Positions 1 through 30,664 of a stretch of 32,000 nucleotides of DNA are shown piece after piece (position 1 is the stretch's first letter; every line of letters starts with the position of its first letter). The notes under the pieces were generated by a model. It did no database searches, was not told the origin of the DNA, and saw nothing but the letters and a program-made list of their open reading frames with translations. The stretch lies in contig NZ_JADEXU010000074.1 of assembly GCF_015206895.1 (NCBI RefSeq), positions 1 to 32,000 on the forward strand, written 5' to 3'. The position numbers and the translations under genes are program-made. Source of the stretch: Nostoc sp. LEGE 12450. Lineage in GTDB: Bacteria; Cyanobacteriota; Cyanobacteriia; Cyanobacteriales; Nostocaceae.

Positions 1-336
1 TTGACTCATCCTGAATCTCCCTAGCAGCAGCCAGAGCCTCGCTTAACAACTCTGGTGGCAATTTATCAGCCAAACTACTTAGGGCTTCGGCGCGACTTGA
101 CTCATCCTGAATCTCCCTAGCAGCAGCCAGAGCCTCGCTTAACAACTCTGGTGGCAATTTATCAGCCAAACTACTTAGGGCTTCGGCGCGACTTGACTCA
201 TCCTGAATCTCCCTAGCAGCAGCTAGTGCCTCGCTGAACAAATCAGGCAATTTATCAGCCAAACGATTTAGGGCTAAGGCGCGATAATACTTATCCTGAA
301 TCTCCCTAGCAGCAGCCAGTGCTTTTGAGAGTCCTA
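1..336. repeat. 96-nt tandem coding repeats (32-aa units) in the sensor domain of NLR-like locus B
   Basis: Positions 1-96 and 97-192 appear identical base for base. 193-288 is a diverged copy, and a fourth degenerate copy follows. The period is a multiple of 3 and in frame with the minus-strand ORF. Confidence 0.9.
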
Positions 337-1957
337 GTTGTTTTAGGTTTGGTGGCAGGTGATTGACTAGCTCTGTAAGCAAGTGTGCTTTATTTTGTGG
401 ATTCGAGCTTTGTAGCACGTAAGCTAGTCCTTGCTCAGGAGTCCAGACACTTTTTTGAACTAACGCAATCAACAGTTCTACTGGTAAATTAGCTGCCAGA
501 CTATTAAGGGATGCAATAATCAAAGCATAGCGACACTGTAAGCCAATAACTTGAGGCAGGGTTGTAAGAGTCCAAGAGCCTTCTGCCAATTGCCAAGCAC
601 GAGCAACATCAGTTACAAAGTTGGCAGTTTGTCCCAAGCGATCGCACGCTTTATACCAACCATTACCTCCTGTTTTTGACTCTTCACGCAATAAGGAGTG
701 AATCTCTTCTACTTGTTCAGCCTTTTCCAAATGCCAGACTAGACGTTGGTGGATATAACCGTCATTAGGGAGGGTATGCCAGAGATTTTTATCGGTTAAT
801 TTTTGGTACTTCTCTAAGAATTTGGTATGAGCTTGAGGCAGAGTTATACCTAATCCTGGTAGATTACCAAAGCGCTTCGGGTTTAGTGGAGCAGTTAACA
901 AATTACATGCAAGGTCATGAAATAAGTCATGTAAACGATAGGTTGGTGTTCCATCTATTAAAGGGACACCAGACAATAACAGTGCTTTAGAGTGCAAGTA
1001 GCCCAACTCATCTGCTGCATCCCGCTCATGATCCATATCCCACAGCATTACAGTCATTTGCTGAGTAATAGTTACATCCTCGGGTAATATTCCCAGCCAG
1101 ATGAAATTTTCTCGCGTAACGGGAGCTAATCGCTGGACACTCAAATTTAATGATGCAGTTAAACTGAGTTTTTTTAAGCTTGCTTCATCCGCCGCATCTC
1201 TAGCTGATTTATTATCTAATGTTTTTAAGCGGGCTACCTCTTGCTGCATATCCTGCACAAGAACTGTCCAAGGAGTACCATCACCAACTTGGGCAGCGGC
1301 TAGTTCCAATGCCAAAGGCAAGTAACCAAGCTCTCTTGCTAAAGCTTCTGCCGACTGAGTTTCTGTGTCAGTGAGGTCACGTCCTAATTTCTTAGTCAGC
1401 AGTTCCATCGCTTGGGATGGCTGCATCACATCCAGAGAATACGAGATGGCTCCGAGAACTTGGGCGATTCCTGCTTCGCGTGTTGTTACCAAAACTTGAC
1501 AACGCGCTCCACCAACATTAAATGCTTGTGCATCCTTTGTATCCCAAGCATCGTCTACTACTACCAGCACAGCTTTGTCATACAGCAGTGTACGCAGTTG
1601 ATTGGAAGCACCTTCTACGCTAGTAGCTTTAAAGTTGTTGTCCCCTAATACCTGTACCCAATCACTAAGCAGGGATAGAAGATGAGGCTGCTGACCTAAT
1701 GTTGCCCAGAGAATCCCATCACAAAAATGAGCTTGCACCTCTTGATCGTGCGCTAAAGCCATTGCGAGGGTTGATTTCCCAACAGAACCCAAGCCGTGAA
1801 TGGCAGTCACAACCAAAGTACGGACATCATTTGACTGTGCAAGCAGCCGAGTTTTTAAGTCTTGGCTATATTCGGGACGGTCAACGTAATAACTTGGCAG
1901 TGGTGGTGCTTGGAAAGGTTTTTTTAACTTTACCCATTCCCCAACGGGCGGCTGTAG
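1..1957 (-). CDS. NB-ARC (STAND) NTPase with C-terminal 32-aa HEAT/ARM-like repeats (NLR-like locus B body). The 3' end runs off the left edge, and the 5' end abuts the in-frame TGA at 1958-1960.
   Basis: I translated the minus strand by hand in the frame of the 1958-1960 stop. It is open for all ~652 codons down to position 2. It is absent from the ORF track because it has no stop in the window and no early start. Motifs: YVDRPEYSQDLKTRLL (pre-P-loop), Walker A GLGSVGKST, Walker B VLVVVDDAWD, VLVTTRE, and GYLPLALE (GLPL-type). The C-terminus is repeats of SRAEALSSLADKLPPELLSEALAAAREIQDES. The first canonical in-frame start after the TGA is TTG 1816 or GTG 1810, only ~8-10 codons before the P-loop. 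Confidence 0.8.
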
Positions 1958-2389
1958 TCAGGTGTTGTTAAATGTAATATTGTGACCACTGCCACCCTGA
2001 ATTACTGGCGCATTGGTGTTGTTAGCATTATTCTGTTGTCCTTCTCCACCATAGACATTCTGAAGATTTTGACCTTGAATCTGACCAATATTTATTTCTT
2101 GCTGAATCTCATGAGCCAGTTTCTGTATCTCTTGGGCAAAATTCGGGTCAGATTTCATCACTGGCTGTAAGTAAGCAGCAAGTTTTTCTAAATCTGGCTT
2201 AGACCCTTTTTCTGCTGAAGCAAACGCTGCTTCAGCCTCTTGGTTTCCATGAATCTTGTTCCAAATCTTGTCACGCAGCACTTTTATTTTGGCAAGAGTT
2301 GCTTCTGTGAATTTCTCAATTGTTTTCTCAAAAGCTTTAGTGAAAGCAAGAGTTGCGATTACACCAGCAGTAAGCGGTTCCATGTACAA
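1958..2389 (-). CDS. Small helical protein (143 aa) with an N-terminal hydrophobic helix (MYMEPLTAGVIATLAFTKAF) and a G/N/Q-rich tail. Candidate HeLo/Bell-like or effector-associated N-terminal module of NLR-like locus B (terminated form).
   Basis: ORF track. It is a paralog of 11300-11773, sharing the MEPLTAG start, a DP(N/E) helix and a GGE/GSG-NI tail. It ends at a TGA that is in frame with the downstream NB-ARC ORF. Confidence 0.75.
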   Translation of the reverse strand: MYMEPLTAGVIATLAFTKAFEKTIEKFTEATLAKIKVLRDKIWNKIHGNQEAEAAFASAEKGSKPDLEKLAAYLQPVMKSDPNFAQEIQKLAHEIQQEINIGQIQGQNLQNVYGGEGQQNNANNTNAPVIQGGSGHNITFNNT

Positions 2390-3493: not shown

Positions 3494-5161
3494 CTACTTA
3501 TATTCTGCAAACCATTCACACTGATTGCACCGCCATTTTAGCGCCTCTTTTTTAGGCAGATAAGATGAAAATTTAGGCAATTGCAAATATTTACTATCAA
3601 TTTCGCTATAGGAAGTACGCCGCAAACTAGGAGCAAGGTGTACCTGCATTGTCTCAGGGTTAATAGCAATTAGATTAAGGTCAAATAGTGTATGTATATC
3701 TGCCCGTAGGAGCAATCCATTTGAGGGGTGATTATTTTCAGTCTCAGTATAAGGAATGATGTGGGCAGCTTCCAAGGCTTCTTGTGCATCACATCCGGTG
3801 ATAGCACAGCGATAATTGTAGGCTTCGAGCAAACTTTGACGAAACTGAGGTTGTCCTTGCCGTCGAGCAATAGATATAGTGATTCGCTCTCTAGCTTGCT
3901 TTATACTTTTTGGATTGAAAAACCCGTCAGCCTCAATAACCGCAGTAAGCTCATTTATCTCTGCTAATTGATTGTGGTCAATCTTTTCTGAAATTCTCTG
4001 AATGTTTTGTTTATTAGTGTCTTCAACACGGTTATTTAAAATCGGTGGGTTAGCAGCAGACTTGTTTGTAGTTTCTACTTCTGTTGAGCTATCATTAACA
4101 GTTTCAGGGATTTCCTGAATGTCCTCAAGAATTGCATCTTTATCAGTAACATTGAAAGACTGGATGAGGTTCAGTGACTGCTGATAATATTCAACCCATC
4201 CACCTTGCTGATAAAGAGCAGCAGCTTTCTCTAAATCCTCAATGGCTCCTAGTTTATCACCTAATTGATAGCGGGCAAGACCACGGTATTCGTATACGTC
4301 AGGATATTTATCAGCAATCTTAATCGCATGGTTGTAATCTTCAATAGCTCTTTGATAATTTCTCAATTCATTGTAAGCATTGCCTCGGTTAATATAGTCA
4401 ACAGCATTGTTATAATCATTTTTATAAAAAGAAATTTCTTTACTGTAATCCTCAATCGCTCCCTCATAATCTCCCAGATTATAGCGAGCATTTCCGCGAT
4501 TGTTGTAGGTTGAGCAGTATCTAATCCGACTAGGATCTTTTTGAATTGCTGTGTTGTAATCCTTAATGGCTCCTTGATAATCTCCTAAATTAGCGCGTGC
4601 ATAGCCAAGGTCACTGTATAACTCAGCCCAATTGTAATAACCACAAAAATTACTAGGTGTTAGCTGAATTGCCTGTTCGTAATCCTTAATAGCCCCCTCA
4701 TAATCTCCCAATTCACTACGGGCTTGACCCCGTTGATAGTAAGCAGAGGGATAGTCAGGGTCAAGCTGAATTGACCTATCAGCATCTTCAAATGCTCCTT
4801 GGTAATTGCTCTGCTGGTAGTGCAATTCTGCTCGTAAATAATATGCAGAAGCATAGTTTGGATCTAGCTCAATCGCCTTGTTGTAATCCTCTATTGCTCC
4901 TTTATAATTTCTCAAGTTTCTGCGTTCCTGACCTCGCATACAATAAGCACTATCATCATTTGGATTTATGCAAATTGCTTGAGTATAATCCTCTATTGCT
5001 CCTTGATAGTCCCTTAGTAAATTACGAACGCTAGCTCGTTCTTTATAAGCATTAGCATCATTTCTATTTACCCGGATTTCTCTAGTCCAATATGTAAAAT
5101 CGCATTGTAATCTATTTTCATGACTCAAATCGTTTGGCAAAGCTTGATTATAATCTTCCAT
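3494..5161 (-). CDS. TPR-repeat protein fused to a C-terminal HNH endonuclease (HNH_2-like) domain
   Basis: The N-terminal ~330 aa are 34-aa TPR units (YQGAIEDYxxAIxLDPxxAxAYxxRG pattern). The C-terminus reads RRQGQPQFRQSLLEAYNYRCAITGCDAQEALEAAHIIPY...NGLLLRADIHTLFDLNLIAI, which is typical of the HNH_2 restriction-endonuclease-like family. Confidence 0.85.
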   Translation of the reverse strand: MEDYNQALPNDLSHENRLQCDFTYWTREIRVNRNDANAYKERASVRNLLRDYQGAIEDYTQAICINPNDDSAYCMRGQERRNLRNYKGAIEDYNKAIELDPNYASAYYLRAELHYQQSNYQGAFEDADRSIQLDPDYPSAYYQRGQARSELGDYEGAIKDYEQAIQLTPSNFCGYYNWAELYSDLGYARANLGDYQGAIKDYNTAIQKDPSRIRYCSTYNNRGNARYNLGDYEGAIEDYSKEISFYKNDYNNAVDYINRGNAYNELRNYQRAIEDYNHAIKIADKYPDVYEYRGLARYQLGDKLGAIEDLEKAAALYQQGGWVEYYQQSLNLIQSFNVTDKDAILEDIQEIPETVNDSSTEVETTNKSAANPPILNNRVEDTNKQNIQRISEKIDHNQLAEINELTAVIEADGFFNPKSIKQARERITISIARRQGQPQFRQSLLEAYNYRCAITGCDAQEALEAAHIIPYTETENNHPSNGLLLRADIHTLFDLNLIAINPETMQVHLAPSLRRTSYSEIDSKYLQLPKFSSYLPKKEALKWRCNQCEWFAEYK

Positions 5162-5446: not shown

Positions 5447-8236
5447 CTAGAGAGACATCCCTTTACCCTGTCTTCTTTCTTGTCGAAGAGCCTCTTCTCT
5501 TATTTCTTGCAATACACGCTCTGCTTTTTGCCAAAGCTGAATATCTTCTCTTTCTACTGACCCAATAGAAATCGGGGAATACTCAAGCTCACCTGACTGG
5601 TTTCGGTTGACTGCCACTCGAAAAATCTCACCTCGTTCATCATGGGTAAAGACCAGTTCTCTCCCCTGTTTCTCCAGAGTGGCACGTTTGAATCTAAGGC
5701 TATTTGAGCCAGTTTCTCTTAATTGCCAGTTGATTAATTCAACAGCAATAGGCACAGCCATCGCTAAGAATTCCGATTCTTTATGCTGCTTTTCATCGAG
5801 TGACTGTTCTGGTTCTGACTTTTGAGTTGCCAGTTGATTGCTAGCGATAAGTACTAATTCTCTGGCTTCATCTTGTGTCCATCCGGCTGGACTGGCAAAG
5901 ATAATTTCTTCAACATCTTGGGGTGACTTATTATCTAATAGCGCCCGTATAGCAATTTCTTTATCTCGGTCAGTCACTAATAAGTTTTGCAAGTCTGCGC
6001 TGTAATACTGATATAACTCGGCTGAAAGATTATCTTTTAACTTTGGTTCATCTGTGGTTATAGTTGGAGTTTGATTAAGAGCAATTGCGTCTACTGTTGT
6101 TTGCGATCTATGCAGTTGCTCCAAATAAACAATCGCTGCTTCCAGGTCGTCGAATATGGTTCTTCCGGCTGATAGCTGCTGCTGATTTTGAGAAAGTTGT
6201 TGTGTTAATTCTAATACTGTTTGGGTTAAAGCAGACTCGATAGCTGATTGCTCAATATAATCAAAGATTGATGAAATAGCTTTGTTTTCTGCGTGAGATT
6301 GCAACTCAGCCGTAACTGCTTCATCAAAGTCACTGAATGTAGTTTTAGCTGCAACTAGTTGTTGATGATATTGAGAAACTTGCTCTGTTAACCCTAATAC
6401 TGCTTGGCTTAAAGCTGACTCGATAGCTGATTGCTCAATATAATCAAAGATTGATGAAATGGCTTTCTGATCTGCATGGGATTGCAACTCAGCCGTCAAT
6501 GCTTCATCAAAGTCATTGAATGTAGTTTTATCTTTAACTAGTTGCTCTTTGTATTGAGACAGTTGCTCTGTTAATCCTAATACTGTTTCAGTTAAAGCTG
6601 ACTCGATAGTTGATTGCTCAATATAATCAAAGATTGATAAAATAGCTCTCTTCTCTGCATGAGATTGTAACTCAGCCGTCAATGCTGTTTCAAAGTCATT
6701 GAATGTAGTTTTCGCTTCAAGTAGCTGCTGATGATATTGAGAAACTTGCTGTGTTAATCCTAATACTGCTTGGCTTAAAGCTGACTCGATAGCTGATTGC
6801 TCAATATAATCAAAGATTGATAAAATGGCTTTCTGATCTGCATGGGATTGCAACTCAGCCGTAAATGCTTCATCAAAGTCATTGAATGTAGTTTTATCTT
6901 TAACTAGTTGCTGCCGATATTGAGATAGTTGCTCTGTTAATCTTAATACTGTTTCAGTTAAAGCTGACTCGATAGCTGATTGCTCAATATAATCAGAGAT
7001 TGACAAAATTGCTTTCTTCTCTGCGTGGGATTGCAACTCAGCCGTAAATGCTTCATCAAAGTCATTGAATGCAGTTTTAGCTCGAAAGAGTTGTTGCCGA
7101 TAAATAGATAGTTGTTCTGTTAATTGTGGCAACGTTTCAGCCAAGGCATCATCAACTACTGACTGTTCAATAAAGTCAGAGATTGCATCCACTGCTCTTT
7201 GTGATGATAGTCGTTGCTCTTTATTAACAATCGCGGCTCCCAGGTCGTCAAATGCGGTTTTTTCTGCTTCTTGCTGCTGCTGATACGCGGACAGTTGTTC
7301 TGTTAATTGTGGTAAAGTTTCAACCAAGGCATCATCAACTACTGACTGTTCGATAAAGTCAGCGATTATATTTATAAATCTTTGGCTCTCCACTGCTTGC
7401 TCTTTAGGATTCTTCAACAGATTCTCAATAAGCTCATCATCCCGTTGGGGCTGGTAGTCAATCCCCTTATGTTTTTGTAAACCTGGGAATGTGTAGGCAG
7501 GCCCCAAAGATGTGCCGCTAAATTTCTGGTCATTCCAAGAGTACGAAATGCCCTTACTTTTACCGTTGCGTGTTAAGCCATGACGAACTTCTACACCTTG
7601 TAGTTGCAACCGCTCAACCAGTTGGGGCATAGTTAGTTTATCTATTGTGGCGCGGTCGATTAGTTCCTGGAGTTGTTGCTTAATAGGGCGTTCTTGTGGT
7701 GTAAGGCGCTCACCATTGATATATTCAGAGTGTTCTCTTTCTAGCCGTTTTTGTTGTCCAATACTGGGATTACGCGATAATTTCTCATGACTGCTCTGGG
7801 TTTGTTGTAAACCATAATCTCGTTCTAGCTGCCGAATAATGGTTTCGCTACGCTTGTAATCCCAGCTATCATGTACAATCTTCCCGTTATCTAACCGAAT
7901 GCGGCTGGCGCAGATATGGATATGGTCATGCTCTGTGTTGCTATGTCTGTAAACAACGTACTGGTTACTGTCAAAGCCCATCTCTTCGAGATAGCGGTTA
8001 GCAAGTTCGTTCCAGGTTGGTTCGTCTAGTCGCTCGTTGTCTGGTAGTGATAATGATGCGTGATACACTACACGGTCAGCTTCTGGGTTTAGTTGTCGGG
8101 AAATTTTGAATTCTCTGGCCAGGGCACGGGCGTTATTGCCGCCCATATTGCCACCAATGAGTTTGGCATCTTTCTGAGACTCCAAATAATTCAGCAGTCC
8201 GCGAAACCCTCGCCCTTTAGTCTGGTTGCCAATCAT
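5447..8236 (-). CDS. Mobilisation relaxase (MobA/VirD2-type N-terminal domain) with a long internal 61-aa tandem-repeat region
   Basis: The N-terminus reads GRGFRGLLNYLE..., then VVYHASLSLP, then the histidine triad HSNTEHDHIHICASRI (HxDxxxHxH type). It overlaps the upstream MobC-like gene by 20 nt. Confidence 0.9.
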   Translation of the reverse strand: MIGNQTKGRGFRGLLNYLESQKDAKLIGGNMGGNNARALAREFKISRQLNPEADRVVYHASLSLPDNERLDEPTWNELANRYLEEMGFDSNQYVVYRHSNTEHDHIHICASRIRLDNGKIVHDSWDYKRSETIIRQLERDYGLQQTQSSHEKLSRNPSIGQQKRLEREHSEYINGERLTPQERPIKQQLQELIDRATIDKLTMPQLVERLQLQGVEVRHGLTRNGKSKGISYSWNDQKFSGTSLGPAYTFPGLQKHKGIDYQPQRDDELIENLLKNPKEQAVESQRFINIIADFIEQSVVDDALVETLPQLTEQLSAYQQQQEAEKTAFDDLGAAIVNKEQRLSSQRAVDAISDFIEQSVVDDALAETLPQLTEQLSIYRQQLFRAKTAFNDFDEAFTAELQSHAEKKAILSISDYIEQSAIESALTETVLRLTEQLSQYRQQLVKDKTTFNDFDEAFTAELQSHADQKAILSIFDYIEQSAIESALSQAVLGLTQQVSQYHQQLLEAKTTFNDFETALTAELQSHAEKRAILSIFDYIEQSTIESALTETVLGLTEQLSQYKEQLVKDKTTFNDFDEALTAELQSHADQKAISSIFDYIEQSAIESALSQAVLGLTEQVSQYHQQLVAAKTTFSDFDEAVTAELQSHAENKAISSIFDYIEQSAIESALTQTVLELTQQLSQNQQQLSAGRTIFDDLEAAIVYLEQLHRSQTTVDAIALNQTPTITTDEPKLKDNLSAELYQYYSADLQNLLVTDRDKEIAIRALLDNKSPQDVEEIIFASPAGWTQDEARELVLIASNQLATQKSEPEQSLDEKQHKESEFLAMAVPIAVELINWQLRETGSNSLRFKRATLEKQGRELVFTHDERGEIFRVAVNRNQSGELEYSPISIGSVEREDIQLWQKAERVLQEIREEALRQERRQGKGMSL
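6104..7385. repeat. Seven 183-nt (61-aa) tandem repeats inside the relaxase gene
   Basis: The anchor gattgctcaatataatc recurs at 6246, 6429, 6612, 6795 and 6978, with diverged copies at 7161 and 7344. The period is exactly 183. The protein units resemble AILSIFDYIEQSAIESALTETVLGLTEQLSQYRQQLVKDKTTFNDFDEAFTAELQSHADQK, with two alternating subtypes. Confidence 0.9.
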
Positions 8237-8729
8237 CTGTTTCCTCGTCCGATTCTTCGATGAAGGTATTGGCTATTTCCCGTTGGCAGTGTCGTAGCAG
8301 TTCTAGTAACTCTTGTAGAAGTTCTGGTGATGCTGGCGGTGGCAACTGCATTTTAATGGCGGTATTGGTGGCTTTGGCCAGTTGGTTGATGTTGTTGCCG
8401 ATGCGCGACAGTTCCAGGTATGTGTCTAGTGTAACTCTGCCCAGTCGCGGCGGTGGTGGTGGGATTGGTCGCAGTAACATACATCGTCTTGTCAATTCTC
8501 CCAAGCTCAAGCCCGTATCTTCTGCTTTAGAGCGAATCATCTCATATTCAATCGGGCTGAATCGCGCTTGCAACATTTTGGTGCGGACGAGTGACTGAGA
8601 AGAAGCTTTGGGCATAAGTAAAACTTGAGTTGATGCAGTTTTTGAGGGGGTTTCCAAAGTGGGGATACTTCCCCCTTTGGCAAGCCTGCCGAGTCGAGCT
8701 TTAGCGAGACAGCACGCAGTGCTAGGCAT
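8217..8729 (-). CDS. mobC: MobC-family relaxosome accessory protein. The true start is possibly ATG 8615 or 8576 rather than 8729.
   Basis: The sequence RFSPIEYEMIRSKAEDTGLSLGELTRRCML...YLELSRIGNNINQLAKATN matches the MobC pattern (RHH-like N-terminus plus GNNLNQ). It is translationally overlapped with the relaxase. The 5' 38 codons contain a strong hairpin and may be non-coding. Confidence 0.8.
   Translation of the reverse strand: MPSTACCLAKARLGRLAKGGSIPTLETPSKTASTQVLLMPKASSQSLVRTKMLQARFSPIEYEMIRSKAEDTGLSLGELTRRCMLLRPIPPPPPRLGRVTLDTYLELSRIGNNINQLAKATNTAIKMQLPPPASPELLQELLELLRHCQREIANTFIEESDEETDDWQPD
8654..8680. promoter_or_regulatory. Candidate oriT-type inverted repeat upstream of (or in the 5' extension of) mobC
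   Basis: ccaaagtgggga (8654-8665), tact, tccccctttgg (8670-8680). This gives an 11-bp stem with one bulged T and a 4-nt loop. The location is typical for an oriT IR, but I recognised no nic consensus. Confidence 0.3.
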
Positions 8730-9053
8730 GGCTTGCTCTGAACCAGTTTTTGGGGGAGGCAGAAGGACTAGGGGTACAACCCACTAGGGGACAAAGCGCG
8801 TAATCTCTGGATACCACAACCATGATATTACTAAGGAGTTAATGTAAATTACACTGTGTCAATTATTCGTGATAAGTCTGTGATTTATATTTGATTAACT
8901 GTTCGTGAGTTATCTTACACGCTATGAGTAATCAATGTTCAACCAATTACGTTAATATCTATTGCTGTTTCTTAACCAATTGTTGCATTGATAATTACCT
9001 GTCTTTAGATAGATGCTGCATATTCAAGTAAAGTTTTAAACATAAACATTAGT

Positions 9054-9596
9054 TTGATTTTTACTCTTGTGGCTAAAGACAATATTCCTAAGTCGAAGAT
9101 TCCAGACGCTCTTGATGCTCTACGCGCTTTGGGTGCTAAAGAATTAGATGATATCCCAGCACGAGCAGCTATTAAAAAGATGCGCCGTCAAATTGAGCGG
9201 GTGCTTCGTCTCGGATATAGCTACGAGGAAGTGTCTAAAACTTTAGCCCCTTTGGATATCAACATCAGCCCTGAACGTATCCGTTATTTACTTAACGATA
9301 TTCGTCGGTCTACACGCAAAAAGTCAGTTACTACTCCAAGTCTTGAGAATACTAGTACACCAGTTATTGATGAGCCGGCAGTTAGTGAGGATTCGACTTC
9401 TGAGCAAAGCACTAATCAGTCTGTTCAAAAATCAGAACCAGAATCAAAACCAGAATCAAAACCAGCTTCTTCAAAATCAACAACTACTAAAACTCCTAAA
9501 ACGGCTAAAAAGACCTCTGATGCTAAGGCTCTAGAGAATCAAAATTCCTCTCGCCTTGCTTTTGTGCCTGAAATAATAAACGACGAGGATTTGTAG
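9054..9596 (+). CDS. Hypothetical protein, possibly a DNA-binding partner of the ParA-like ATPase. It has a low-complexity K/S/T/P/E tail.
   Basis: TTG-start ORF immediately followed by the ParA-like gene (TAG then ATG). The segment IPARAAIKKMRRQIERVLRLGYSYEEVSKTLA looks HTH-like. The tail reads KSEPESKPESKPASSKSTTTKTPKTAKK. The start codon is uncertain. Confidence 0.55.
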   Translation: MIFTLVAKDNIPKSKIPDALDALRALGAKELDDIPARAAIKKMRRQIERVLRLGYSYEEVSKTLAPLDINISPERIRYLLNDIRRSTRKKSVTTPSLENTSTPVIDEPAVSEDSTSEQSTNQSVQKSEPESKPESKPASSKSTTTKTPKTAKKTSDAKALENQNSSRLAFVPEIINDEDL

Positions 9597-10376
9597 ATGG
9601 TAGTCAAACCTAAACAATCGGATGACCAAGTTCAGGAACAAAAGGCAACTGAACAGCCAAAAAATCTTGGGCGCTTGGTGTTGGTGACTGGTGATAAGGG
9701 CGGGACTGGTAAAAGTGTCATGGCTAGAATCCTACTCGACATTTACCGCCACAGAAATATTAACTGCATCGCTTACGAGTGTGACCAGTCTAATCCTCAG
9801 CTTTATCGTCATTACAACAAAGTCGCTCCTGGCGTGCAAACGCTCAAACTAAATCAGCGCGGTGGTGCTGATGCTTTGCAGGATGATTTAAAACGTTTAT
9901 CTCCTCAAGTTTCCCTTGTGGATCTGCCTGCTGGGGCTGCTGAGTATTTTGAGTCAGTCGCTAAGGATATTTTTCTGTTTCAAAATGCCCAGCGTTTGGG
10001 TTATCGCATCACTATGGTGTCGGTGCTGGGTCGGGTTAAAGATAGTCTGTTGCAGTTAAAACGGCTGGTGGATTTCTGCGGCGACAAAGTTGATTATGTA
10101 GTTGTGAAAAATCTTTACTGGGGTGATGAACACAAGTTTACTCGCTACAACAATTCTAAGATGAAGCAGGCTGTAGAAGCATTGGGGGCAATTGAACTGT
10201 TATTGCCTGAGTTGTATGACGATATTTTTGACCTCGTTGACTCCAAGGATCTAACATTCAGGGAGGCGTTAGAGCATGAGGATTTTAGTTTGAGTAATCA
10301 ATCGAGAGTTTATGGCTGGATTGATGCGGTTGAGACTGAGTTTTCTAAGGCGGCTGTACAGTTGGGGTTAGAGTAA
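9597..10376 (+). CDS. parA: ParA/MinD/VirC1-family deviant Walker-A ATPase
   Basis: LVLVTGDKGGTGKSVMA matches the KGGxGKS deviant Walker A. The size (259 aa) and plasmid context fit. Confidence 0.85.
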   Translation: MVVKPKQSDDQVQEQKATEQPKNLGRLVLVTGDKGGTGKSVMARILLDIYRHRNINCIAYECDQSNPQLYRHYNKVAPGVQTLKLNQRGGADALQDDLKRLSPQVSLVDLPAGAAEYFESVAKDIFLFQNAQRLGYRITMVSVLGRVKDSLLQLKRLVDFCGDKVDYVVVKNLYWGDEHKFTRYNNSKMKQAVEALGAIELLLPELYDDIFDLVDSKDLTFREALEHEDFSLSNQSRVYGWIDAVETEFSKAAVQLGLE

Positions 10377-11110
10377 TGGCTGTAAGTAATGGTAATGGCA
10401 ATGGTACGGTATCTCATTTAGATAGGTTGCTGTCAGAAAAGCCACCGGAATTTCAAGCGAAAGTGTTGCGGTTTGCTTTAGATTCTGGAATGAAACAAGA
10501 TGACCCAGCATTTCGACTGGTGCAGTACATTGGATATTTGGCGCAACTAACAGAAACTGCTCCGAATGATTGGAAGTTATTATTTGAAAATTTACAAGAT
10601 GAGTTAAACCAATGGAGTCAACTGACGGCGGAGCAATTGAAGGTTCAAGCCGACCACACGGAGAACATCAAAAATCTGGCGACCAGCTGCAATCAGCTAG
10701 GGACAGCCTTGAGCGCATTAAATCTAACATCTCAGCAACAACTCAAGCAATTGACGAGCTTAACCAAACTCTCCGAGAATTTGAACAATATCTCCCCCAG
10801 GCAACCAGAGACATTGAGCAAACCGTTGCAAGAACAATTGAACGAGATTCAGACGGGAATATCTCTATTGAACCAAAAAGACGTGGAATCAGTCGTTAAA
10901 GGTTGGACTAGAGCTATTAGAATCTGGCTTGTCTCTCCGATCTCATTTTTTATTCTGTTTTGGTTTTATTCACACATGACCCCAATCCCTACTCCTATTG
11001 AAACTACTGAGTCTCTACAGAAGATTTTGCAGAATACTGATTGGAGTAATGCCAAGCTTCAACGGGTTGAGAAAAAGTTGGGGACAGATCCAAACCGAAG
11101 ACGACGATAA
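10376..11110 (+). CDS. Hypothetical coiled-coil protein with a C-terminal transmembrane segment
   Basis: Its ATG overlaps the parA stop (TAATG). It has a Q/L-rich coiled-coil region and a hydrophobic stretch, IWLVSPISFFILFWFY. Confidence 0.7.
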   Translation: MAVSNGNGNGTVSHLDRLLSEKPPEFQAKVLRFALDSGMKQDDPAFRLVQYIGYLAQLTETAPNDWKLLFENLQDELNQWSQLTAEQLKVQADHTENIKNLATSCNQLGTALSALNLTSQQQLKQLTSLTKLSENLNNISPRQPETLSKPLQEQLNEIQTGISLLNQKDVESVVKGWTRAIRIWLVSPISFFILFWFYSHMTPIPTPIETTESLQKILQNTDWSNAKLQRVEKKLGTDPNRRRR

Positions 11111-11299: not shown

Positions 11300-11773
11300 A
11301 TGGAGCCATTAACTGCTGGTACGTTGATGCTTGCTTTCGTAGGAAGTAAACTCATTGATTGGTCAATTGGCAAAGCTTTTGATGCAGCTTATGACACAGC
11401 CAAGCAAGTTCTGGCAAAGAAATCTCCTGAAACGGCAGAGGCTTTAGCAGCCGCAGCAGAACAAGCTTCATTACCCGCCGCAGAGCGAAAAAATATTGGT
11501 GTTGCTGTTTTGGTAGATAAAGTAGAAAAAGTAGCGCAGGCAGATCCGGAGATTAAAGATGCAGTGGAAGCGTTAGGAAATCAAGCCTACGCCTCTGCAC
11601 AAGATAATCCTGCTCTGGCAAAGGCTATTCAAGAGTTAACACAAACCATTAAAGCTCAAAAACCACCCAGCCAGAACCCAGCCAAAATAGCGGAAACAAT
11701 CGGAATTAACGAACAGAATATTTCAGGTGGTGAGGTTGTTCAGCATTTTGGTTCAGGTAATATCCAAATTTGA
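11300..11773 (+). CDS. Small helical protein (157 aa) with an N-terminal hydrophobic helix (MEPLTAGTLMLAFVGSKLI) and a G/N/Q-rich tail. Candidate HeLo/Bell-like N-terminal module of NLR-like locus A (terminated form).
   Basis: ORF track. GAGGTAG lies 4 nt upstream of the ATG. It is a paralog of 1958-2389. It ends at TGA 11771-11773, in frame with the NB-ARC-TPR ORF. Confidence 0.75.
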   Translation: MEPLTAGTLMLAFVGSKLIDWSIGKAFDAAYDTAKQVLAKKSPETAEALAAAAEQASLPAAERKNIGVAVLVDKVEKVAQADPEIKDAVEALGNQAYASAQDNPALAKAIQELTQTIKAQKPPSQNPAKIAETIGINEQNISGGEVVQHFGSGNIQI

Positions 11774-14023
11774 CTACAGTCGCCCGAACGGGAACGGGTA
11801 AAGTTAAATCCCCCACAAAATATTCCTCCTAGTAGCACAGATAAATTTGTCGGACGAGAAAGAGAATTAGAACGCCTCCAACAACAGTTACAATCCAATC
11901 ATGCGGTGGTAATTGCTGCTGTGGAAGGGATGGGGGGAGTTGGTAAAACCGAATTAGCAATCCAATATTCACTACTAAATTTGCAGTTGCACAGCTACCC
12001 TGGCGGTATCTGCTGGTTAAGAGCTAGAGAGTCAGATATTGGGTTACAAATATTACAATTTGCTACAATAGACTTGGGTAAAAAGCCGCCAGAAGATTTG
12101 GAGTTACTAGAACGAGTACGTTGGTGCTGGCAACATTGGCGGCAGGGGAATACGCTAATAGTCCTTGATGATGTTAATAGTTACAGTCACATTGAACCGT
12201 ATCTACCACCCCAACCATCTCAATTTCAGGTACTAATTACTACACGCCTAAAGCTAGATTTACTTAGTTCTCTGTTTTTGAAAGTTTTATCAGAAACAGA
12301 CGCACTCTTGTTACTAGCTCAATCAATTGGAGAAGCAAAGCAAAACCAAGAATTAGCACAAGCCCAAGAAATTTGTCAGCGTTTAGGCTATTTGCCCTTA
12401 GCTTTGCAATTAGTCGGTAGGTATGTAAAGAGACACAAGATATCATTAGCTGAAATACTGCGACGCTTAGAGGAAAAAGGATTAGCTCATCCTTCGTTAG
12501 TTGTGAAAGAAAATGACCCCACTTGGAATTCAAATGTCAAACTTGGAGTAGCGGCGGCTTTTGAATTAAGTTGGGAACAATTAAGTAATGATGCTCAACA
12601 GTTAGGTTGTTTAGTAAGCTTATTTGCTTTAGCTCCGATTCCTTGGTCGTTGGTGAAACGTGCCGCTCCAGAGGAAGACCAAGAAGAATTAGAAGATGCC
12701 AGAGTTGAATTAGAAAATTTGCATTTGCTACAAGGTGAAAAAACTTATGAATTACATCAGCTAATTCGTGAATTTCTGAGAGACAAGCAAAAAAACTTAG
12801 CTACTGCGTCAGAGCAAAAGTCTCATTTCTGCCAAACAATGGTAGAAGTGGCAAAGGAAATTCCCTCTTCACCTACTCAAAAATTCATTAGTTCAGTCAA
12901 AGATGATATGCCACATTTAGCAGAGGTGGGACAAAATTTGATTGATGCAGTCACTGATGAAAACTTAATTTGGGTTTTTTATGGCTTAGATAGATTTTAC
13001 TCTGGACAGGGTTTATATACTCTAGCAGAACCTTGGGATGAGCTATGTGTATCAGTAGTAAAACATCGCTTGGGAGAAGAACATCCCAATGTCGCTACCA
13101 GTTACAACAACCTGGCTTTACTCTACTATTCCCAAGGGCGGTACAGCAAAGCCGAACCACTGTATCTAAAAGCTTTGGAACTCAGGCAACGGCTGTTGGG
13201 AGAAGAACATCCCGATGTCGCCACCAGTTACAACAACCTGGCTGTACTCTACCATTCCCAAAGACAGTACAGCAAAGCCGAACCACTGTATCTAAAAGCT
13301 TTGGAACTTTGGCAACGGCTGTTGGGAGAAGAACATCCCGATGTCGCTATTAGTTACAACAACCTGGGTGGGCTTTACCATTCCCAAAGACAATACAGCA
13401 AAGCCGAACCACTGTATCTAAAAGCTTTGGAACTTTGGCAACGGCTGCTGGGAGAAGAACATCCCGATGTCGCCACTAGTTACCACAACCTGGCTTTACT
13501 CTACTATTCCCAAGGACAGTACAGCAAAGCCGAACCACTGTATCTAAAAGCTTTGGAACTCAGGCAACGACTGCTGGGAGAAGAAAATCGCAATGTCGCT
13601 ACCAGTTACAACAACCTGGCTTTACTCTACTATTCCCAAGGACAGTACAACAAAGCCAAACCATTGTATCTAAAAGCTTTATTACTCAGGCAGCGGCTGC
13701 TGGGAGAAGAACATCCTGATATCGCTACCAGTTACCACAACCTGGCTTTACTCTACTATTCCCAAGGACAGTACAACAAAGCCAAACCATTGTATCTAAA
13801 AGCTTTATTACTCAGGCAGCGGCTGCTGGGAGAAGAACATCCTGATGTCGCCACCAGTTACCACAACCTGGCTTTACTCTACTATTCCCAAGGACAGTAC
13901 AGCGAAGCCGAACCACTGTATCTAAAAGCTTTGAAAATTGCTGAACTTAGCTTAGGGGTAAATCATCCCAGCACAGCCACTATCCGTAAAAATCGGAAAT
14001 ACTTGTGCAATAATTGCCTTTAA
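11774..14023 (+). CDS. NB-ARC (STAND) NTPase with a TPR sensor (NLR-like locus A body). The ORF track starts it at GTG 11906, but the conserved domain begins right after the TGA.
   Basis: Codons 11774-11905 are open, in frame and have no ATG/GTG/TTG. They encode LQSPERERVKLNPPQNIPPSSTDKFVGRERELERLQQQLQSNHA. Downstream motifs are GMGGVGKTELA (P-loop), LIVLDDV (Walker B), VLITTR and GYLPLALQ (GLPL). Seven 42-aa TPR units follow. Confidence 0.85.
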   Translation, partial: LQSPERERVKLNPPQNIPPSSTDKFVGRERELERLQQQLQSNHAVVIAAVEGMGGVGKTELAIQYSLLNLQLHSYPGGICWLRARESDIGLQILQFATIDLGKKPPEDLELLERVRWCWQHWRQGNTLIVLDDVNSYSHIEPYLPPQPSQFQVLITTRLKLDLLSSLFLKVLSETDALLLLAQSIGEAKQNQELAQAQEICQRLGYLPLALQLVGRYVKRHKISLAEILRRLEEKGLAHPSLVVKENDPTWNSNVKLGVAAAFELSWEQLSNDAQQLGCLVSLFALAPIPWSLVKRAAPEEDQEELEDARVELENLHLLQGEKTYELHQLIREFLRDKQKNLATASEQKSHFCQTMVEVAKEIPSSPTQKFISSVKDDMPHLAEVGQNLIDAVTDENLIWVFYGLDRFYSGQGLYTLAEPWDELCVSVVKHRLGEEHPNVATSYNNLALLYYSQGRYSKAEPLYLKALELRQRLLGEEHPDVATSYNNLAVLYHSQRQYSKAEPLYLKALELWQRLLGEEHPDVAISYNNLGGLYHSQRQYSKAEPLYLKALELWQRLLGEEHPDVATSYHNLALLYYSQGQYSKAEPLYLKALELRQRLLGEENRNVATSYNNLALLYYSQGQYNKAKPLYLKALLLRQRLLGEEHPDIATSYHNLALLYYSQGQYNKAKPLYLKALLLRQRLLGEEHPDVATSYHNLALLYYSQGQYSEAEPLYLKALKIAELSLGVNHPSTATIRKNRKYLCNNCL
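13070..13951. repeat. Seven 126-nt (42-aa) tandem TPR-coding repeats with very high nucleotide identity
   Basis: The unit start ttgggagaagaacatcc recurs at 13070, 13196, 13322, 13448, 13574, 13700 and 13826. Two consecutive units (about 13604-13860) are nearly identical over more than 110 nt. The protein unit is LGEEHPDVATSYNNLALLYYSQGQYSKAEPLYLKALELRQRL. Confidence 0.9.
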
Positions 14024-14159
14024 AGCTAGTGTAAGAGAGCGATTTTTTGCGGAGAAGATAGGTGACAATTAAGCTGGGATTTTAAGCGTTAATCATCCCA
14101 AAACCTTGAAACTTTGTAGACGCAAGTTTGGTGTAACGAACAGTGTGCTGAATATTGTT

Positions 14160-17926: not shown

Positions 17927-17999
17927 ATTAATCTCTGATTTCGATTAGGTCTAAATTTTTACAGTCAGATACCCAAAACCCTGAAGAGAAGGGGCTTGG

Positions 18000-30364: not shown

Positions 30365-30664
30365 CTACTGTGTTATCCTTAATTTAATTGCTTTTAGCGG
30401 GGGCAAATTCTGCTCAACCACGCCCAAAACTCGATTTAAGTTTACTTTTAAATAATCGTGAATCAGTATATCTCTGAAACCAGCTACTTGCTGCCAAGGG
30501 ACATCGGGATAAGCTGCTCTGATTTCGGAAGACAACCGCTTTGTTGCTTCTCCAATAATTTCAAAATTTCTAATTACTGCATCCTGAATTATTGTGGTTT
30601 GCAAAAATGCCTCTTTACCATCCTGGGTATAAGGTGGATCTAGCGAAGCTGTCATCAGGGGCAA
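30365..30664 (-). CDS. hepT: HepT/DUF86-family HEPN RNase toxin homolog. It is N-terminally short and has no adjacent MNT antitoxin gene.
   Basis: The sequence has QDAVIRNFEIIGEATKRL, PWQQVAGFRDILIHDY (Rx4HxY motif intact) and NLPPLK. An in-frame stop at 30677-30679 prevents extension. No ORF lies upstream. Confidence 0.75.
   Translation of the reverse strand: MPLMTASLDPPYTQDGKEAFLQTTIIQDAVIRNFEIIGEATKRLSSEIRAAYPDVPWQQVAGFRDILIHDYLKVNLNRVLGVVEQNLPPLKAIKLRITQ

What the first reader, a model, noticed from the sequence alone, without database searches (positions are those of the whole stretch)
1..2389. Second, diverged paralogous locus with the same architecture and the same in-frame TGA CTA CAG
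On the minus strand, the 143-aa protein (1958-2389) ends at TGA 1958-1960. The same frame then stays open for ~652 codons to the window edge; I translated it by hand. The continuation reads LQPPVGEWVKLKKPFQAPPLPSYYVDRPEYSQDLKTRLLAQSNDVRTLVVTAIHGLGSVGKST, followed by Walker B, VLVTTRE, GYLPLALE and then 32-aa HEAT-like repeats. The first canonical in-frame start (TTG 1816 or GTG 1810) is only 8-10 codons before the P-loop. The two small proteins are only weakly similar and the sensors differ (HEAT-like versus TPR), yet both loci keep the stop at the same junction. An independent sequencing error or an independent pseudogenising mutation at the same site in two diverged paralogs is unlikely.
Basis: seen in the sequence. 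Interest (0 to 1): 0.85.

Follow-up and report, generated by a model that had tools for sequence, protein, structure and literature searches.

The report
Leaky stop joins toxin and sensor
In many filamentous cyanobacteria, a small cell-death effector gene and its immune-sensor gene are really one reading frame interrupted by a conserved stop codon followed by a conserved RNA knot, which most likely lets a few ribosomes read through to make a fused sensor; this expression mode has not, to my knowledge, been described for bacterial immune genes.

Summary
On the minus strand, a 141-aa ORF (2383-1961) ends at TGA 1960-1958. The same frame then stays open for 652 codons to the window edge and encodes an NB-ARC NTPase plus 32-aa repeats. 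The first canonical start (codon 48) lies inside the NTPase domain.

Locus A (11300-14023, plus strand) has the same layout. The two loci share 33 of 38 nucleotides at the junction, although their proteins are only about 28-33% identical.

The layout recurs elsewhere:
- About 80 junctions from a genome scan and 23 from a protein-based metagenome sample show it.
- Each has a small 'MEP...' helical protein with a disordered G/N/Q-rich tail, a stop codon (TGA, once TAG, once TAA), an 8-nt spacer (mostly CUACAGYC) and a 5-bp hairpin.
- Most also show a second helix that would make an H-type pseudoknot, then an in-frame NB-ARC, NACHT or other partner with no conserved start codon.
- The hairpin is 99% paired and has compensatory changes.
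- Codons 16-50 after the stop have pN/pS 0.26 in this frame only.
- Relatives with a separate NLR gene have their own ATG and their own copy of the amyloid-like motif. These loci have neither.

Best reading: programmed stop-codon readthrough makes abundant free effector and rare effector-sensor fusion. No experiment supports this yet, and I found no prior description.

The parts
1961..2383 (-). Small effector ORF of locus B (141 aa, MEPLTAG...). Residues 1-104 (2072-2383) are a helical domain; residues 105-141 (1961-2071) are a disordered G/N/Q-rich tail ending ...NAPVIQGGSGHNITFNNT.
   Evidence: sequence and translation. AlphaFold gives helices to about residue 110, block-mean pLDDT mostly 77-95 over residues 1-100, and below 50 from residue 105; 152 homologs, all 110-155 aa; the 'MEPIS' N-terminal motif is the hallmark of Bell/Hell domains; relatives form canonical paired-motif effector/NLR gene pairs.
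1958..1960 (-). In-frame TGA stop that ends the small ORF; the proposed readthrough site.
   Evidence: A stop is present at this position in all homologous loci examined. TGA ends ordinary genes elsewhere in the window, so the genetic code is standard.
1950..1957 (-). 8-nt spacer CUACAGCC between the stop and the hairpin.
   Evidence: CTACAG is invariant in the 82-sequence alignment, but the search pattern fixed it there. In the protein-derived sample it is CTR-VAG in most loci, and the spacer length is 8 nt in nearly all.
1932..1949 (-). Hairpin S1: 5' arm GCCCG (1949-1945), 8-nt loop UUGGGGAA (1944-1937), 3' arm UGGGU (1936-1932).
   Evidence: 99% of cells are paired over 82 sequences. Pair 28-43 is CG66/UA15/UG1; pair 30-41 is CG44/UG18/UA11/GC7. 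None of 500 shuffles reaches the observed values, and slid controls give 19-53% paired. RNAalifold independently predicts exactly this helix.
1912..1916 (-). Tentative 3' strand (UUUCC) of a second helix S2, pairing with loop GGGAA (1941-1937) to give an H-type pseudoknot. In locus B the connecting loop is longer than in the consensus.
   Evidence: the close relative L005 gives GGAGA/UUUCC at the same offset. In most other loci S2 is GGGA/UCCC 9 nt after S1, with compensatory variants (L127, L136, L051). For locus B itself this is inference.
1..1957 (-). Continuation of the same frame (652 codons, cut by the window edge). It comprises a linker (codons 1-34, 1856-1957), the NB-ARC domain (1292-1855; P-loop GLGSVGKST at 1769-1795), an APAF1_C-like helical domain (689-841) and 32-aa repeats (96-nt tandem array at 1-319).
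   Evidence: translation; Pfam NB-ARC 1.4e-22, APAF1_C 4.6e-6; tandem repeat. The first canonical start is at codon 48 (TTG 1816), inside the NB-ARC match; no promoter-like or terminator-like site lies between the two ORFs on this strand.
11300..11773 (+). Locus A small effector ORF (157 aa, MEPLTAG...; tail ...GGEVVQHFGSGNIQI) with its TGA at 11771-11773.
11774..11812 (+). Locus A junction element: spacer CUACAGUC (11774-11781); S1 GCCCG (11782-11786) with CGGGU (11795-11799); loop AACGGGAA (11787-11794); S2 loop GGGA (11790-11793) with UCCC (11809-11812).
11774..14023 (+). Locus A continuation in the same frame: NB-ARC plus TPR_10/TPR_12 sensor (749 codons, TAA at 14021-14023).
   Evidence: translation. 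NB-ARC 8.9e-16, TPR_12 1.9e-106.

Best explanation
Locus B, like locus A and about 100 related loci in filamentous cyanobacteria, is one translational unit with a programmed leaky stop.

Most ribosomes terminate at the stop. This releases a roughly 140-aa protein made of a helical Bell-like membrane-targeting domain and a short amyloid-type signalling tail. A minority of ribosomes decode the stop with a near-cognate tRNA and continue in frame. For UGA this is probably tRNA-Trp, which is an inference. The context would favour it: a C directly after the stop (UGA-C, CUA), and a 5-bp hairpin or H-type pseudoknot whose base sits 8 nt past the stop, at the ribosome's mRNA entrance. The product is an effector-tail-linker-NB-ARC-repeat fusion, that is, an NLR-like sensor that carries the same signalling tail.

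When the sensor detects its trigger and oligomerises, the clustered tails would nucleate the amyloid fold. That fold would then template the excess free effector, which kills the cell. The stop therefore sets the sensor:effector ratio, and one set of codons supplies the motif to both partners.

What is shown: the anatomy, conservation of the stop, RNA covariation, coding selection downstream, absence of a conserved start, and the contrast with two-gene relatives. What is inferred: that readthrough happens, its efficiency, the inserted amino acid, amyloid templating and cell killing.
For: 1. Anatomy in the window.

2. The stop is maintained. All 152 homologs of the small protein are 110-155 aa and none is fused. 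A profile of the first 50 post-stop residues found no protein containing them behind an upstream domain.

3. A genome scan with the stem positions left free gave 97 stretches. The roughly 80 cyanobacterial ones all have an MEP... ORF of 124-170 aa, then an open frame of hundreds of codons. In most, a P-loop sits 48-56 codons after the stop. Non-cyanobacterial chance hits have 2-16 open codons.

4. A sample picked by protein similarity only gave 23 loci with the stop + 8-nt spacer + hairpin layout: 21 TGA, 1 TAG, 1 TAA. All continue in frame into NB-ARC or NACHT.

5. RNA structure. S1 is 99% paired with three covarying pairs and beats 500 of 500 shuffles and all slid controls. RNAalifold finds the same helix. 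One covarying pair links a synonymous third position to a second codon position, which protein selection would not produce (my reading). S2 has same-register compensatory variants: CGGA/UCCG, CGGCA/UGCUG and an A-U pair in L051.

6. Synonymous sites are frozen in codons 1-15 (pS 0.11), as expected for an RNA element. Codons 16-50 show pS 0.40 and pN/pS 0.26 in frame 0, against 1.44 and 2.30 in the other frames.

7. No conserved start. The first canonical in-frame start sits at varying codons, and in several loci only inside the P-loop. Codon 21 is Leu spelled TTG23/TTA20/CTC/CTT/CTG, and codon 26 is GTG36/GTA8/GCG2. These are ordinary sense codons in a region already under protein selection. 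PGAP had to use ATT as the start for the Nostoc PCC 7120 copy.

8. Mutual exclusivity. Relatives with a genuine second gene (L124, L126, L133) have their own ATG and their own copy of the motif, for example DNAKGWQT..GTAYIGE against DNAKGWQT..STLYNAE. In L126 the motif lies upstream of the same ...IPQNLP linker. The stop-plus-pseudoknot loci have neither.

9. The layout matches published readthrough signals: UGA-CUA with a structure about 8 nt downstream, the MuLV pseudoknot with its 8-nt spacer, and leaky termination with C at +4 (PMC3542737, PMC7026636).
Against: - There is no direct evidence of a readthrough product. No proteomic, ribosome-profiling or reporter data were found.
- Single-sequence folding of the region is not better than shuffles (z from -1.3 to +1.4). 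The structure rests on covariation alone.
- The S2 pseudoknot has little variation in the large alignment, because the search pattern fixed the loop. It is supported by only a few lineages and is uncertain for locus B itself.
- All loci probably descend from one ancestral junction. 'Always in frame' is therefore not 100 independent observations.
- A rigid element with a fixed internal non-canonical initiation site would also keep the frame.
- One locus uses UAA, normally the least leaky stop.
- Pseudoknot-stimulated readthrough has, to my knowledge, not been demonstrated on bacterial ribosomes for a cellular gene.
- The Bell-domain assignment rests on the N-terminal motif, the helical prediction and the genomic context. 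No Pfam or PDB match was obtained.
Confidence: 0.62

Rival explanations
1. Two separate proteins. The stop is a full stop, and the sensor is started independently just downstream. This could be termination-reinitiation or initiation at a non-canonical codon (such as the ATT chosen by PGAP), with the hairpin or pseudoknot holding or positioning the ribosome. The frame relation to the stop would be a historical accident frozen by the rigid element.
For: All loci share one ancestral junction, so an in-frame layout had about a 1-in-3 prior chance. Codons 1-15 show no protein-level selection (pN/pS 1.19), so their translation is not demonstrated. PGAP annotates an ATT start at codon 22 in PCC 7120. 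A UAA variant exists.
Against: No candidate start codon is conserved: codon 17 or 21 varies among ATT/ATA/GTT/CTT or TTG/TTA/CTC. Lineages with a +1 insertion in the loop carry a -1 change a few bases later (L136-L138), and other indels are multiples of three (L108, L110). The frame is therefore kept across the element itself. A sensor made this way would lack any effector or signalling N-terminus, whereas true two-gene relatives carry their own motif and ATG. No such initiation mechanism is known in bacteria.
Confidence: 0.17
2. The conserved junction is mainly a DNA-level recombination site. It would be a shared 40-nt homology patch that lets effector/tail modules and sensor modules be shuffled between loci, and the stop and RNA pairing would be incidental.
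For: The junction is near-identical between loci whose flanks are only about 30% identical. One sensor linker class (LQSPERERVKLNPSTEIPQNLPLSG...) follows at least six different tail classes, and one tail class (NAPVIQGGSGHNITFN) precedes several linker classes. The element also precedes non-NLR partners, namely FGE-sulfatase and GUN4.
Against: Compensatory changes that preserve pairing indicate selection on a folded RNA, not on duplex DNA identity. This reading does not explain how the start-less sensor is expressed. It is compatible with the readthrough model as a side effect rather than an alternative.
Confidence: 0.1
3. Selenocysteine insertion: the UGA is decoded as Sec, directed by the downstream hairpin acting as a bacterial SECIS.
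For: A UGA followed immediately by a conserved hairpin is the bacterial SECIS layout.
Against: Sister loci use TAG (L135) or TAA (L137) with the same hairpin. No homolog has Cys or any sense codon at this position. The 5-bp stem is much shorter than known SECIS elements. There was no Rfam match and no tRNA gene in the window. A Sec residue in a disordered linker has no obvious role. From my own knowledge, Sec decoding is rare or absent in cyanobacteria; this was not tested here.
Confidence: 0.02
4. Artefact or decay: a sequencing or assembly error, or a pseudogenised fusion gene.
For: Some copies are clearly decaying. In L001 the first locus has a stop 8 codons later, L109 is frameshifted, and L121 is truncated.
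Against: The same stop is found in about 100 loci from independent isolates, MAGs and metagenomes, including finished genomes such as PCC 7120 and Rivularia PCC 7116. Downstream ORFs stay intact for up to 1432 codons. pN/pS is 0.07 in the P-loop region.
Confidence: 0.02

Closest known systems
Bell-domain / BASS amyloid-signalling effector-NLR gene pairs of filamentous bacteria (Dyrka et al. 2020, bioRxiv 10.1101/2020.01.06.895854) and fungal HET-S/NWD2
   Same: A small helical effector has a conserved N-terminal 'MEP..' helix and a short C-terminal G/N/Q-rich motif. It is encoded immediately upstream of, and collinear with, an NB-ARC/NACHT plus TPR-type sensor, and it occurs in Nostocales. Close relatives of the window protein (L124, L126, L133) are textbook pairs with the motif on both proteins.
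   Different: Here the sensor has no start codon and no motif of its own. Instead it is in frame with the effector behind a conserved stop and RNA structure. The published screens required a motif at the annotated N-terminus of the NLR, so they would not have detected these loci. Neither paper mentions stop codons or readthrough.
Gammaretrovirus (MuLV) gag-pol readthrough signal
   Same: An in-frame stop separates an abundant short product from a rare long fusion. An 8-nt spacer is followed by a compact H-type pseudoknot. Readthrough is about 5% (PMC3542737, PMC7026636).
   Different: The MuLV signal is eukaryotic and viral, uses UAG-G with a purine-rich spacer, and has a larger pseudoknot. 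Here the signal is bacterial, mostly UGA-C with spacer CUACAGYC, and has S1 of 5 bp and S2 of 4-5 bp. Function on 70S ribosomes is untested.
Type II viral readthrough motif (alphavirus, coltivirus, tobravirus): UGA-CUA or UGA-CGG plus a 3' stem-loop
   Same: Both have UGA followed by CUA and an RNA structure that begins about 8 nt after the stop (PMC3542737).
   Different: Those structures are extended stem-loops and act with eukaryotic eRF1. Here the structure is a short hairpin or pseudoknot that would act against bacterial RF2/RF1.
Coliphage Q-beta coat / A1 readthrough protein
   Same: UGA readthrough on bacterial ribosomes gives a minor C-terminally extended product (about 5%) alongside a major short one (PMC7026636).
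   Different: That case is a phage gene with no dedicated pseudoknot 8 nt downstream. It is not a family of cellular or plasmid immune genes.
All-in-one bacterial NLRs with an N-terminal Bell/'MEPIS' domain (Avs2/Avast2, bNACHT02/11/23)
   Same: The predicted readthrough product has the same order: N-terminal MEP.. helical domain, then a STAND NTPase, then repeats.
   Different: Those proteins are uninterrupted ORFs without a free effector form or an internal amyloid-type motif.

Membership tests
Bell-domain / BASS effector-NLR amyloid signalling pair | About 100-aa alpha-helical effector domain with a conserved hydrophobic N-terminal helix ('MEP..' motif) | tested here: met
   MEPLTAGVIATLAF... 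is at the N-terminus. AlphaFold predicts a helical bundle over residues 1-104 with mostly high confidence. The family alignment keeps M1, E2 and P3. There is no Pfam or PDB match to confirm it independently.
Bell-domain / BASS effector-NLR amyloid signalling pair | Short C-terminal motif able to form amyloid | not testable with these tools
   The tail at residues 105-141 is predicted disordered (pLDDT below 50). It is G/N/Q-rich and falls into several conserved classes across loci. Fibril formation needs an experiment.
Bell-domain / BASS effector-NLR amyloid signalling pair | The same motif repeated at the N-terminus of the adjacent NLR | tested here: not met
   There is no second motif copy after the stop. 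About 25-34 linker residues lead straight into NB-ARC. The requirement is met only if the stop is read through. True pairs in the same family do have the second copy.
Bell-domain / BASS effector-NLR amyloid signalling pair | Collinear and adjacent to an NB-ARC/NACHT protein with TPR/WD-type repeats | tested here: met
   NB-ARC is found in both window loci. NB-ARC or NACHT is found in the related loci.
Programmed stop-codon readthrough signal | In-frame stop between two regions that are both under coding selection in the same frame, with the stop conserved | tested here: met
Programmed stop-codon readthrough signal | Leaky local context (UGA, C at +4, CUA/CGG) | tested here: met
   TGA is used in 21 of 23 unbiased loci. 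CTA or CTG follows in 20 of 23. The context rules come from PMC7026636 and PMC3542737.
Programmed stop-codon readthrough signal | 3' RNA structure starting about 8 nt after the stop, supported by covariation | tested here: met
   The spacer is 8 nt. S1 is 99% paired with compensatory changes. The S2 pseudoknot is supported in a few lineages.
Programmed stop-codon readthrough signal | Demonstrated extended protein product | not testable with these tools
   No expression data were available, and literature searches were negative.
Bacterial selenoprotein gene (UGA plus SECIS) | UGA is obligatory, and Cys or Sec occupies that position in homologs | tested here: not met
   TAG and TAA variants exist (L135 and L137). 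No homolog has a sense codon there.
NB-ARC STAND NTPase (NLR-like sensor) | P-loop, Walker B and GLPL-type motifs, with a match to the NB-ARC profile above its threshold | tested here: met
   GLGSVGKST, VLVVVDDAWD and GYLPLALE are present. PF00931 scores 80.7 bits against a cut-off of 23.5.

The most novel reading that the evidence does not exclude
Filamentous cyanobacteria carry a compact, modular readthrough cassette of about 55 nt (stop, 8-nt spacer, H-type pseudoknot) that works on bacterial ribosomes. It turns a two-component amyloid-signalling immune system into a single gene. The same codons supply the prion-like motif to a rare sensor fusion and to an abundant free executioner, and translation itself sets their ratio. 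The cassette has been recombined between many effector tails and many sensors (NB-ARC, NACHT, FGE-sulfatase, GUN4). Readthrough efficiency might itself respond to translational stress during infection.
Probability: 0.5. Interest if true: 0.92.

Novelty: new variant of a known kind. Interest (0 to 1): 0.86.

Why it matters
- If confirmed, this would be, to my knowledge, the first widespread, structure-stimulated programmed stop-codon readthrough in bacterial cellular or plasmid genes. Until now this mechanism has essentially been known from viruses and eukaryotes.
- It would explain how at least the roughly 100 start-less NLR-like genes found here in Nostocales are expressed. Current annotation gives them arbitrary internal starts or non-canonical ones, such as ATT in Nostoc PCC 7120, or splits them from their effector.
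- It adds a third architecture for NLR signalling, between 'two genes with paired amyloid motifs' and 'all-in-one'. In this architecture sensor:effector stoichiometry is set translationally, and the two motif copies can never drift apart because they are the same codons.
- It provides a small, testable RNA element in a genetically tractable model organism (pCC7120gamma).
- It offers a possible tool for fixed-ratio co-expression in cyanobacteria.

Tried and rejected
- **Family and structure searches on the small proteins.** Pfam, NCBIfam and PADLOC found nothing significant. A Foldseek search of the AlphaFold model against the PDB gave no match with E below 1. The Bell assignment therefore rests on the motif, the helical prediction and the genomic context.
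- **RNA databases.** Rfam (gathering thresholds) and tRNA scans of the window found nothing.
- **Single-sequence folding.** Energies of the junction are not better than shuffles, so thermodynamics alone does not support the structure.
- **Outer helix.** An outer helix pairing the stop codon itself (UGACU with AGUYA) appears in some minimum-free-energy folds. It is not kept in the GTATCA or TAAATG subfamilies, and it would be melted when the stop is in the A site. I did not adopt it.
- **Search for natural fusions.** A profile search with the first 50 post-stop residues returned only one short protein that starts downstream of the element. This is uninformative about rare fusions because the query is short.
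- **Failed locus search.** The search for related loci with the broad 29-sequence alignment failed for lack of a conserved stretch. It was rerun with a narrower alignment.
- **Selenocysteine and altered genetic code.** Both were rejected. TAG and TAA variants exist, and TGA ends normal genes in the window.
- **A-to-I editing of the stop by TadA.** I considered this and dropped it by inspection. The stop is not in a tRNA-Arg-like loop and has no UACG context.
- **Third TGACTACAG.** By my own frame count, the copy at 18296-18304 is out of frame within the 18000-19094 ORF, so I treat it as chance.
Full report
**1. Observation**

The window's minus strand carries an ORF from ATG 2383 (MEPLTAG...) to TGA 1960-1958. 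CTA CAG follows, and the same frame stays open for 652 codons to base 1.

Pfam finds NB-ARC (E=1.4e-22, residues 35-222 after the stop) and an APAF1_C-like helical domain. The C-terminal 32-aa repeats are a 96-nt tandem array at 1-319; 'HEAT-like' has no family support.

The first canonical in-frame starts are TTG at codon 48 and GTG at codon 50. Both lie inside the NB-ARC match, only a few residues before the P-loop. No promoter-like or terminator-like site lies between the two ORFs on the minus strand.

Locus A (11300-11773, then 11774-14023, plus strand) has the same plan with a TPR sensor.

The two small proteins are barely alignable (33% over 45 aa). The NTPase regions are 28% identical. 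Yet 33 of 38 nt starting at the TGA are identical, including the synonymous positions. That pointed to a nucleotide-level element rather than a conserved peptide.

**2. Is it real, and is it general?**

Other genes in the window end normally in TGA, so the genetic code is standard.

A protein search with the small protein plus the first 55 post-stop residues found 152 homologs across Nostocales. All are stand-alone proteins of 110-155 aa, and none is fused.

DNA around five distinct homologs showed TGA each time. In three of the five lineages the same CTACAG-hairpin is followed by an in-frame NB-ARC gene: Rivularia PCC 7116, and the Anabaena/Nostoc PCC 7120 gamma plasmid. One Nostoc copy is decayed.

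I then scanned 185,579 species-representative genomes for TGACTACAG-N10-GRGAA-N5-AAAG, leaving the stem free. This returned 97 stretches.
- Every cyanobacterial hit (about 80 unique junctions) has an MEP... ORF of 124-170 aa ending at the TGA. The genera include Nostoc, Scytonema, Rivularia, Calothrix, Brasilonema, Aulosira, Kastovskya and Aerosakkonema.
- The same frame then stays open for hundreds of codons, and in most of them a P-loop sits 48-56 codons after the stop.
- The roughly 15 chance hits in unrelated bacteria have only 2-16 open codons. They serve as an internal negative control.

A second sample was chosen by protein similarity alone, from metagenomes, so it is unbiased with respect to the junction DNA.
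- 23 loci have the same layout.
- The stop is TGA in 21, TAG in one (L135) and TAA in one (L137).
- The next two codons are CTA or CTG followed by CAG, GAG or AAG in most.
- All continue in frame into NB-ARC or NACHT proteins.

**3. The RNA element**

In an 82-sequence alignment of the junction, a 5-bp helix S1 starts 8 nt after the stop and closes an 8-nt loop (NNNGGGAA).
- 99% of cells are paired.
- Pair 28-43 is C-G in 66 sequences and U-A in 15.
- Pair 30-41 is C-G in 44, U-G in 18, U-A in 11 and G-C in 7.
- Pair 31-40 also shows C-G and U-A variants.
- None of 500 shuffles reaches the observed values, and sliding the partner by 1-3 nt drops pairing to 19-53%.
- RNAalifold predicts exactly this helix, and only this helix.

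One covarying pair links the synonymous third position of a Pro/Ser codon to the second position of an Arg/Gln/Pro codon. Protein-level selection would not produce that correlation.

The loop's GGGA can pair with a nearly invariant UCCC 9 nt after S1, which would give an H-type pseudoknot. The scan pattern fixed the loop, so variation there is limited. Even so, the same register shows compensatory variants:
- A-U in L051;
- CGGA/UCCG in L127;
- CGGCA/UGCUG in L136;
- GGGAA/UUCCU in L128, L129 and L134.

I regard S1 as established, and S2 as likely in general but tentative for locus B, where the connecting loop is longer. Single-sequence folding energies are unremarkable, and no Rfam family matches.

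**4. Is the downstream frame translated from the stop onward?**

In 47 loci with the same linker length:
- Codons 16-50 after the stop have pS 0.40 and pN 0.11, so pN/pS is 0.26. The other two frames give 1.44 and 2.30.
- Third-position variability is 0.23, against 0.07 and 0.05 at positions 1 and 2.
- Codons 1-15 have pS of only 0.11. This is the signature of an overlapping RNA element.

The first canonical in-frame start falls at different codons in different loci (11, 19, 21, 26, 39, 45...). In several loci it falls only on the Met inside the P-loop.

Where a TTG or GTG is common it behaves as an ordinary sense codon:
- Codon 21 is Leu, spelled TTG 23, TTA 20, CTC, CTT and CTG.
- Codon 26 is Val, spelled GTG 36 and GTA 8, or Ala, spelled GCG 2.
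- Flanking codons show synonymous variation: Pro CCG/CCA and Gly GGG/GGA.

Translation therefore enters this region from upstream, where no start codon exists. NCBI's pipeline had to assign an ATT start to the Nostoc PCC 7120 copy.

Lineages with a one-base longer loop carry a one-base shorter connector a few bases on (L136-L138). Other length changes are multiples of three. The frame is thus kept across the element itself.

**5. What the parts are**

The small protein is predicted as a confident helical domain (residues 1-104) with a disordered tail (105-141).

Its N-terminal MEP.. helix is the hallmark of Bell/Hell membrane-targeting cell-death domains (bioRxiv 10.1101/2024.11.07.622273). 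Such domains with C-terminal amyloid signalling motifs (BASS) next to NLR genes are characteristic of Nostocales (bioRxiv 10.1101/2020.01.06.895854).

Direct database confirmation failed. There was no Pfam, NCBIfam or PADLOC hit and no significant PDB fold match.

The same protein family does contain textbook pairs. In L124, L126 and L133 the effector ends ...DNAKGWQTKV.GGTAY[IV]GE..., and the next gene has its own ATG and its own copy of that motif. In L126 the motif lies upstream of a ...TGIPQNLP linker that is homologous to the ...EIPQNLPLSG linker of the stop-type loci.

The two layouts are mutually exclusive. A locus has either its own start plus its own motif, or a stop plus pseudoknot with no start and no motif.

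**6. Mechanism**

The most economical reading is programmed stop-codon readthrough. Termination gives the free effector with its signalling tail. Occasional near-cognate decoding of the stop gives an effector-tail-NLR fusion. In the fusion the tail occupies the same position relative to the NTPase as the N-terminal motif of canonical NLRs.

Sensor oligomerisation would then nucleate the tail's amyloid fold and template the free effector pool.

The signal resembles published readthrough signals closely (PMC3542737 and PMC7026636):
- UGA with C at +4 and CUA;
- a structure beginning about 8 nt downstream;
- the compact MuLV pseudoknot with its 8-nt spacer.

Q-beta A1 shows that about 5% UGA readthrough is feasible on bacterial ribosomes.

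The readthrough event, its efficiency, the inserted residue, amyloid templating and killing are all inferences.

**7. Rivals**

- **Independent, non-canonical initiation or reinitiation within the element.** This cannot be excluded from sequence alone, because the loci share ancestry and codons 1-15 show no protein-level selection. But it lacks a conserved start, lacks a known mechanism, and would leave the sensor without any signalling N-terminus.
- **A purely DNA-level role as a recombination patch.** This does not explain the compensatory pairing. However, module exchange at the junction is evident: one linker class sits behind at least six tail classes, and the partners include FGE-sulfatase and GUN4 proteins. 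Exchange is probably a real by-product.
- **Selenocysteine.** The TAG and TAA variants and the absence of any Cys or other sense-codon homolog contradict it.
- **Error or pseudogene.** About 100 independent loci with intact, selected downstream ORFs refute it.

**8. Novelty**

Nine full-text literature searches found no mention of stop-codon readthrough in Bell/NLR loci. Targeted reading gave the same result: the two BASS/Bell papers, and a 2026 survey of conserved RNA structures in 202 cyanobacterial genomes. No paper described a readthrough pseudoknot in cyanobacteria.

The components (readthrough signals, Bell/BASS-NLR signalling) are known. Their combination appears undescribed: a structured readthrough signal in a large family of bacterial immune-type genes, producing a one-gene, two-product system. 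I rate it a new variant of known kinds and of high interest. Its main weakness is the absence of any expression data.

Noticed in passing
window 5447-11110 and 16538-19094: The window looks like a mobilisable cyanobacterial plasmid. It carries a MobA/VirD2 relaxase (5447-8236), NikA/MobC (8217-8729), a ParA-like ATPase (9597-10376), DUF6753 (10376-11110), a DnaB helicase (16538-17926) and a possible replication protein (18000-19094). Bases 1-1960 are 83% identical to plasmid pHT582-1 of Nostocales HT-58-2.
   Followed up: partly
window 27651-30664 (minus strand): A second kind of defence-type gene is present: a Cap4-like dsDNA endonuclease fused to a STAND NTPase (881 aa; weak LmuA hit in PADLOC). 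A HepT-like ribonuclease lies next to it at 30365-30664.
   Followed up: no
window 3494-5161 (minus) and 14106-16355 (plus): A TPR-HNH endonuclease protein lies just upstream of locus B. A 749-aa pentapeptide-repeat protein lies immediately downstream of locus A. Any relation to the NLR loci is unknown.
   Followed up: no
L020 2175-3329, L088, L098 6265-7365, L075: The same stop-spacer-pseudoknot junction also links MEP.. effector ORFs in frame to non-NLR partners. These are a transmembrane segment plus FGE-sulfatase domain (E=6e-52), an Ig-like plus GUN4 domain protein (E=2e-39), and a small membrane protein. The cassette is therefore not NLR-specific.
   Followed up: partly
L008 3909-5914, L009, L116: In a Trichocoleus-type variant, the effector ends in TGA and the frame stays open for 137-138 codons (..LDSFxxLIxWIxxKS..), with no recognisable hairpin. 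A 529-aa protein follows, with a sub-threshold SpoIIGA-like peptidase hit. Whether this is also read through is unknown.
   Followed up: partly
L010-L106 junctions: Effector tail classes and sensor linker classes are combined combinatorially across loci. The tail classes include NAPVIQGGSGHNITFN, GINIKGGTNTISGNTFNF, FQGVDNSPITINYNNHPPD, GNVGNVSNDNRNQTFNF, VFQGNTIIGGNF and QQVIIEQQHNTYN. This suggests recombination at the conserved junction. Some genomes carry several loci, and Scytonema hofmanni has two within 5 kb (L036).
   Followed up: partly
L145 (Nostoc sp. PCC 7120 pCC7120gamma 65522-70384): The model strain carries one of these loci. RefSeq annotates the NLR (WP_044520336.1) from an ATT codon 22 codons after the TGA. 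Similar arbitrary starts are likely in many annotated genomes.
   Followed up: yes
L001 3921-3960 and 5326-5400; L109: Decaying copies exist. In Nostoc sp. JL31 one junction is followed by a stop after 8 codons. A second effector 1 kb downstream has TGA CTAGAG with a weakened stem and an intact in-frame NB-ARC. L109 has a frameshift upstream of the junction.
   Followed up: partly
window 1948-1960 with 1924-1931; 11768-11775 with 11802-11809: Minimum-free-energy folds pair the stop codon region (UGACU) with the conserved AGUUA after the hairpin. The Y at the position opposite G of UGA is always U or C in most subfamilies. The pairing is not kept in other subfamilies, and its significance is unclear.
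   Followed up: partly
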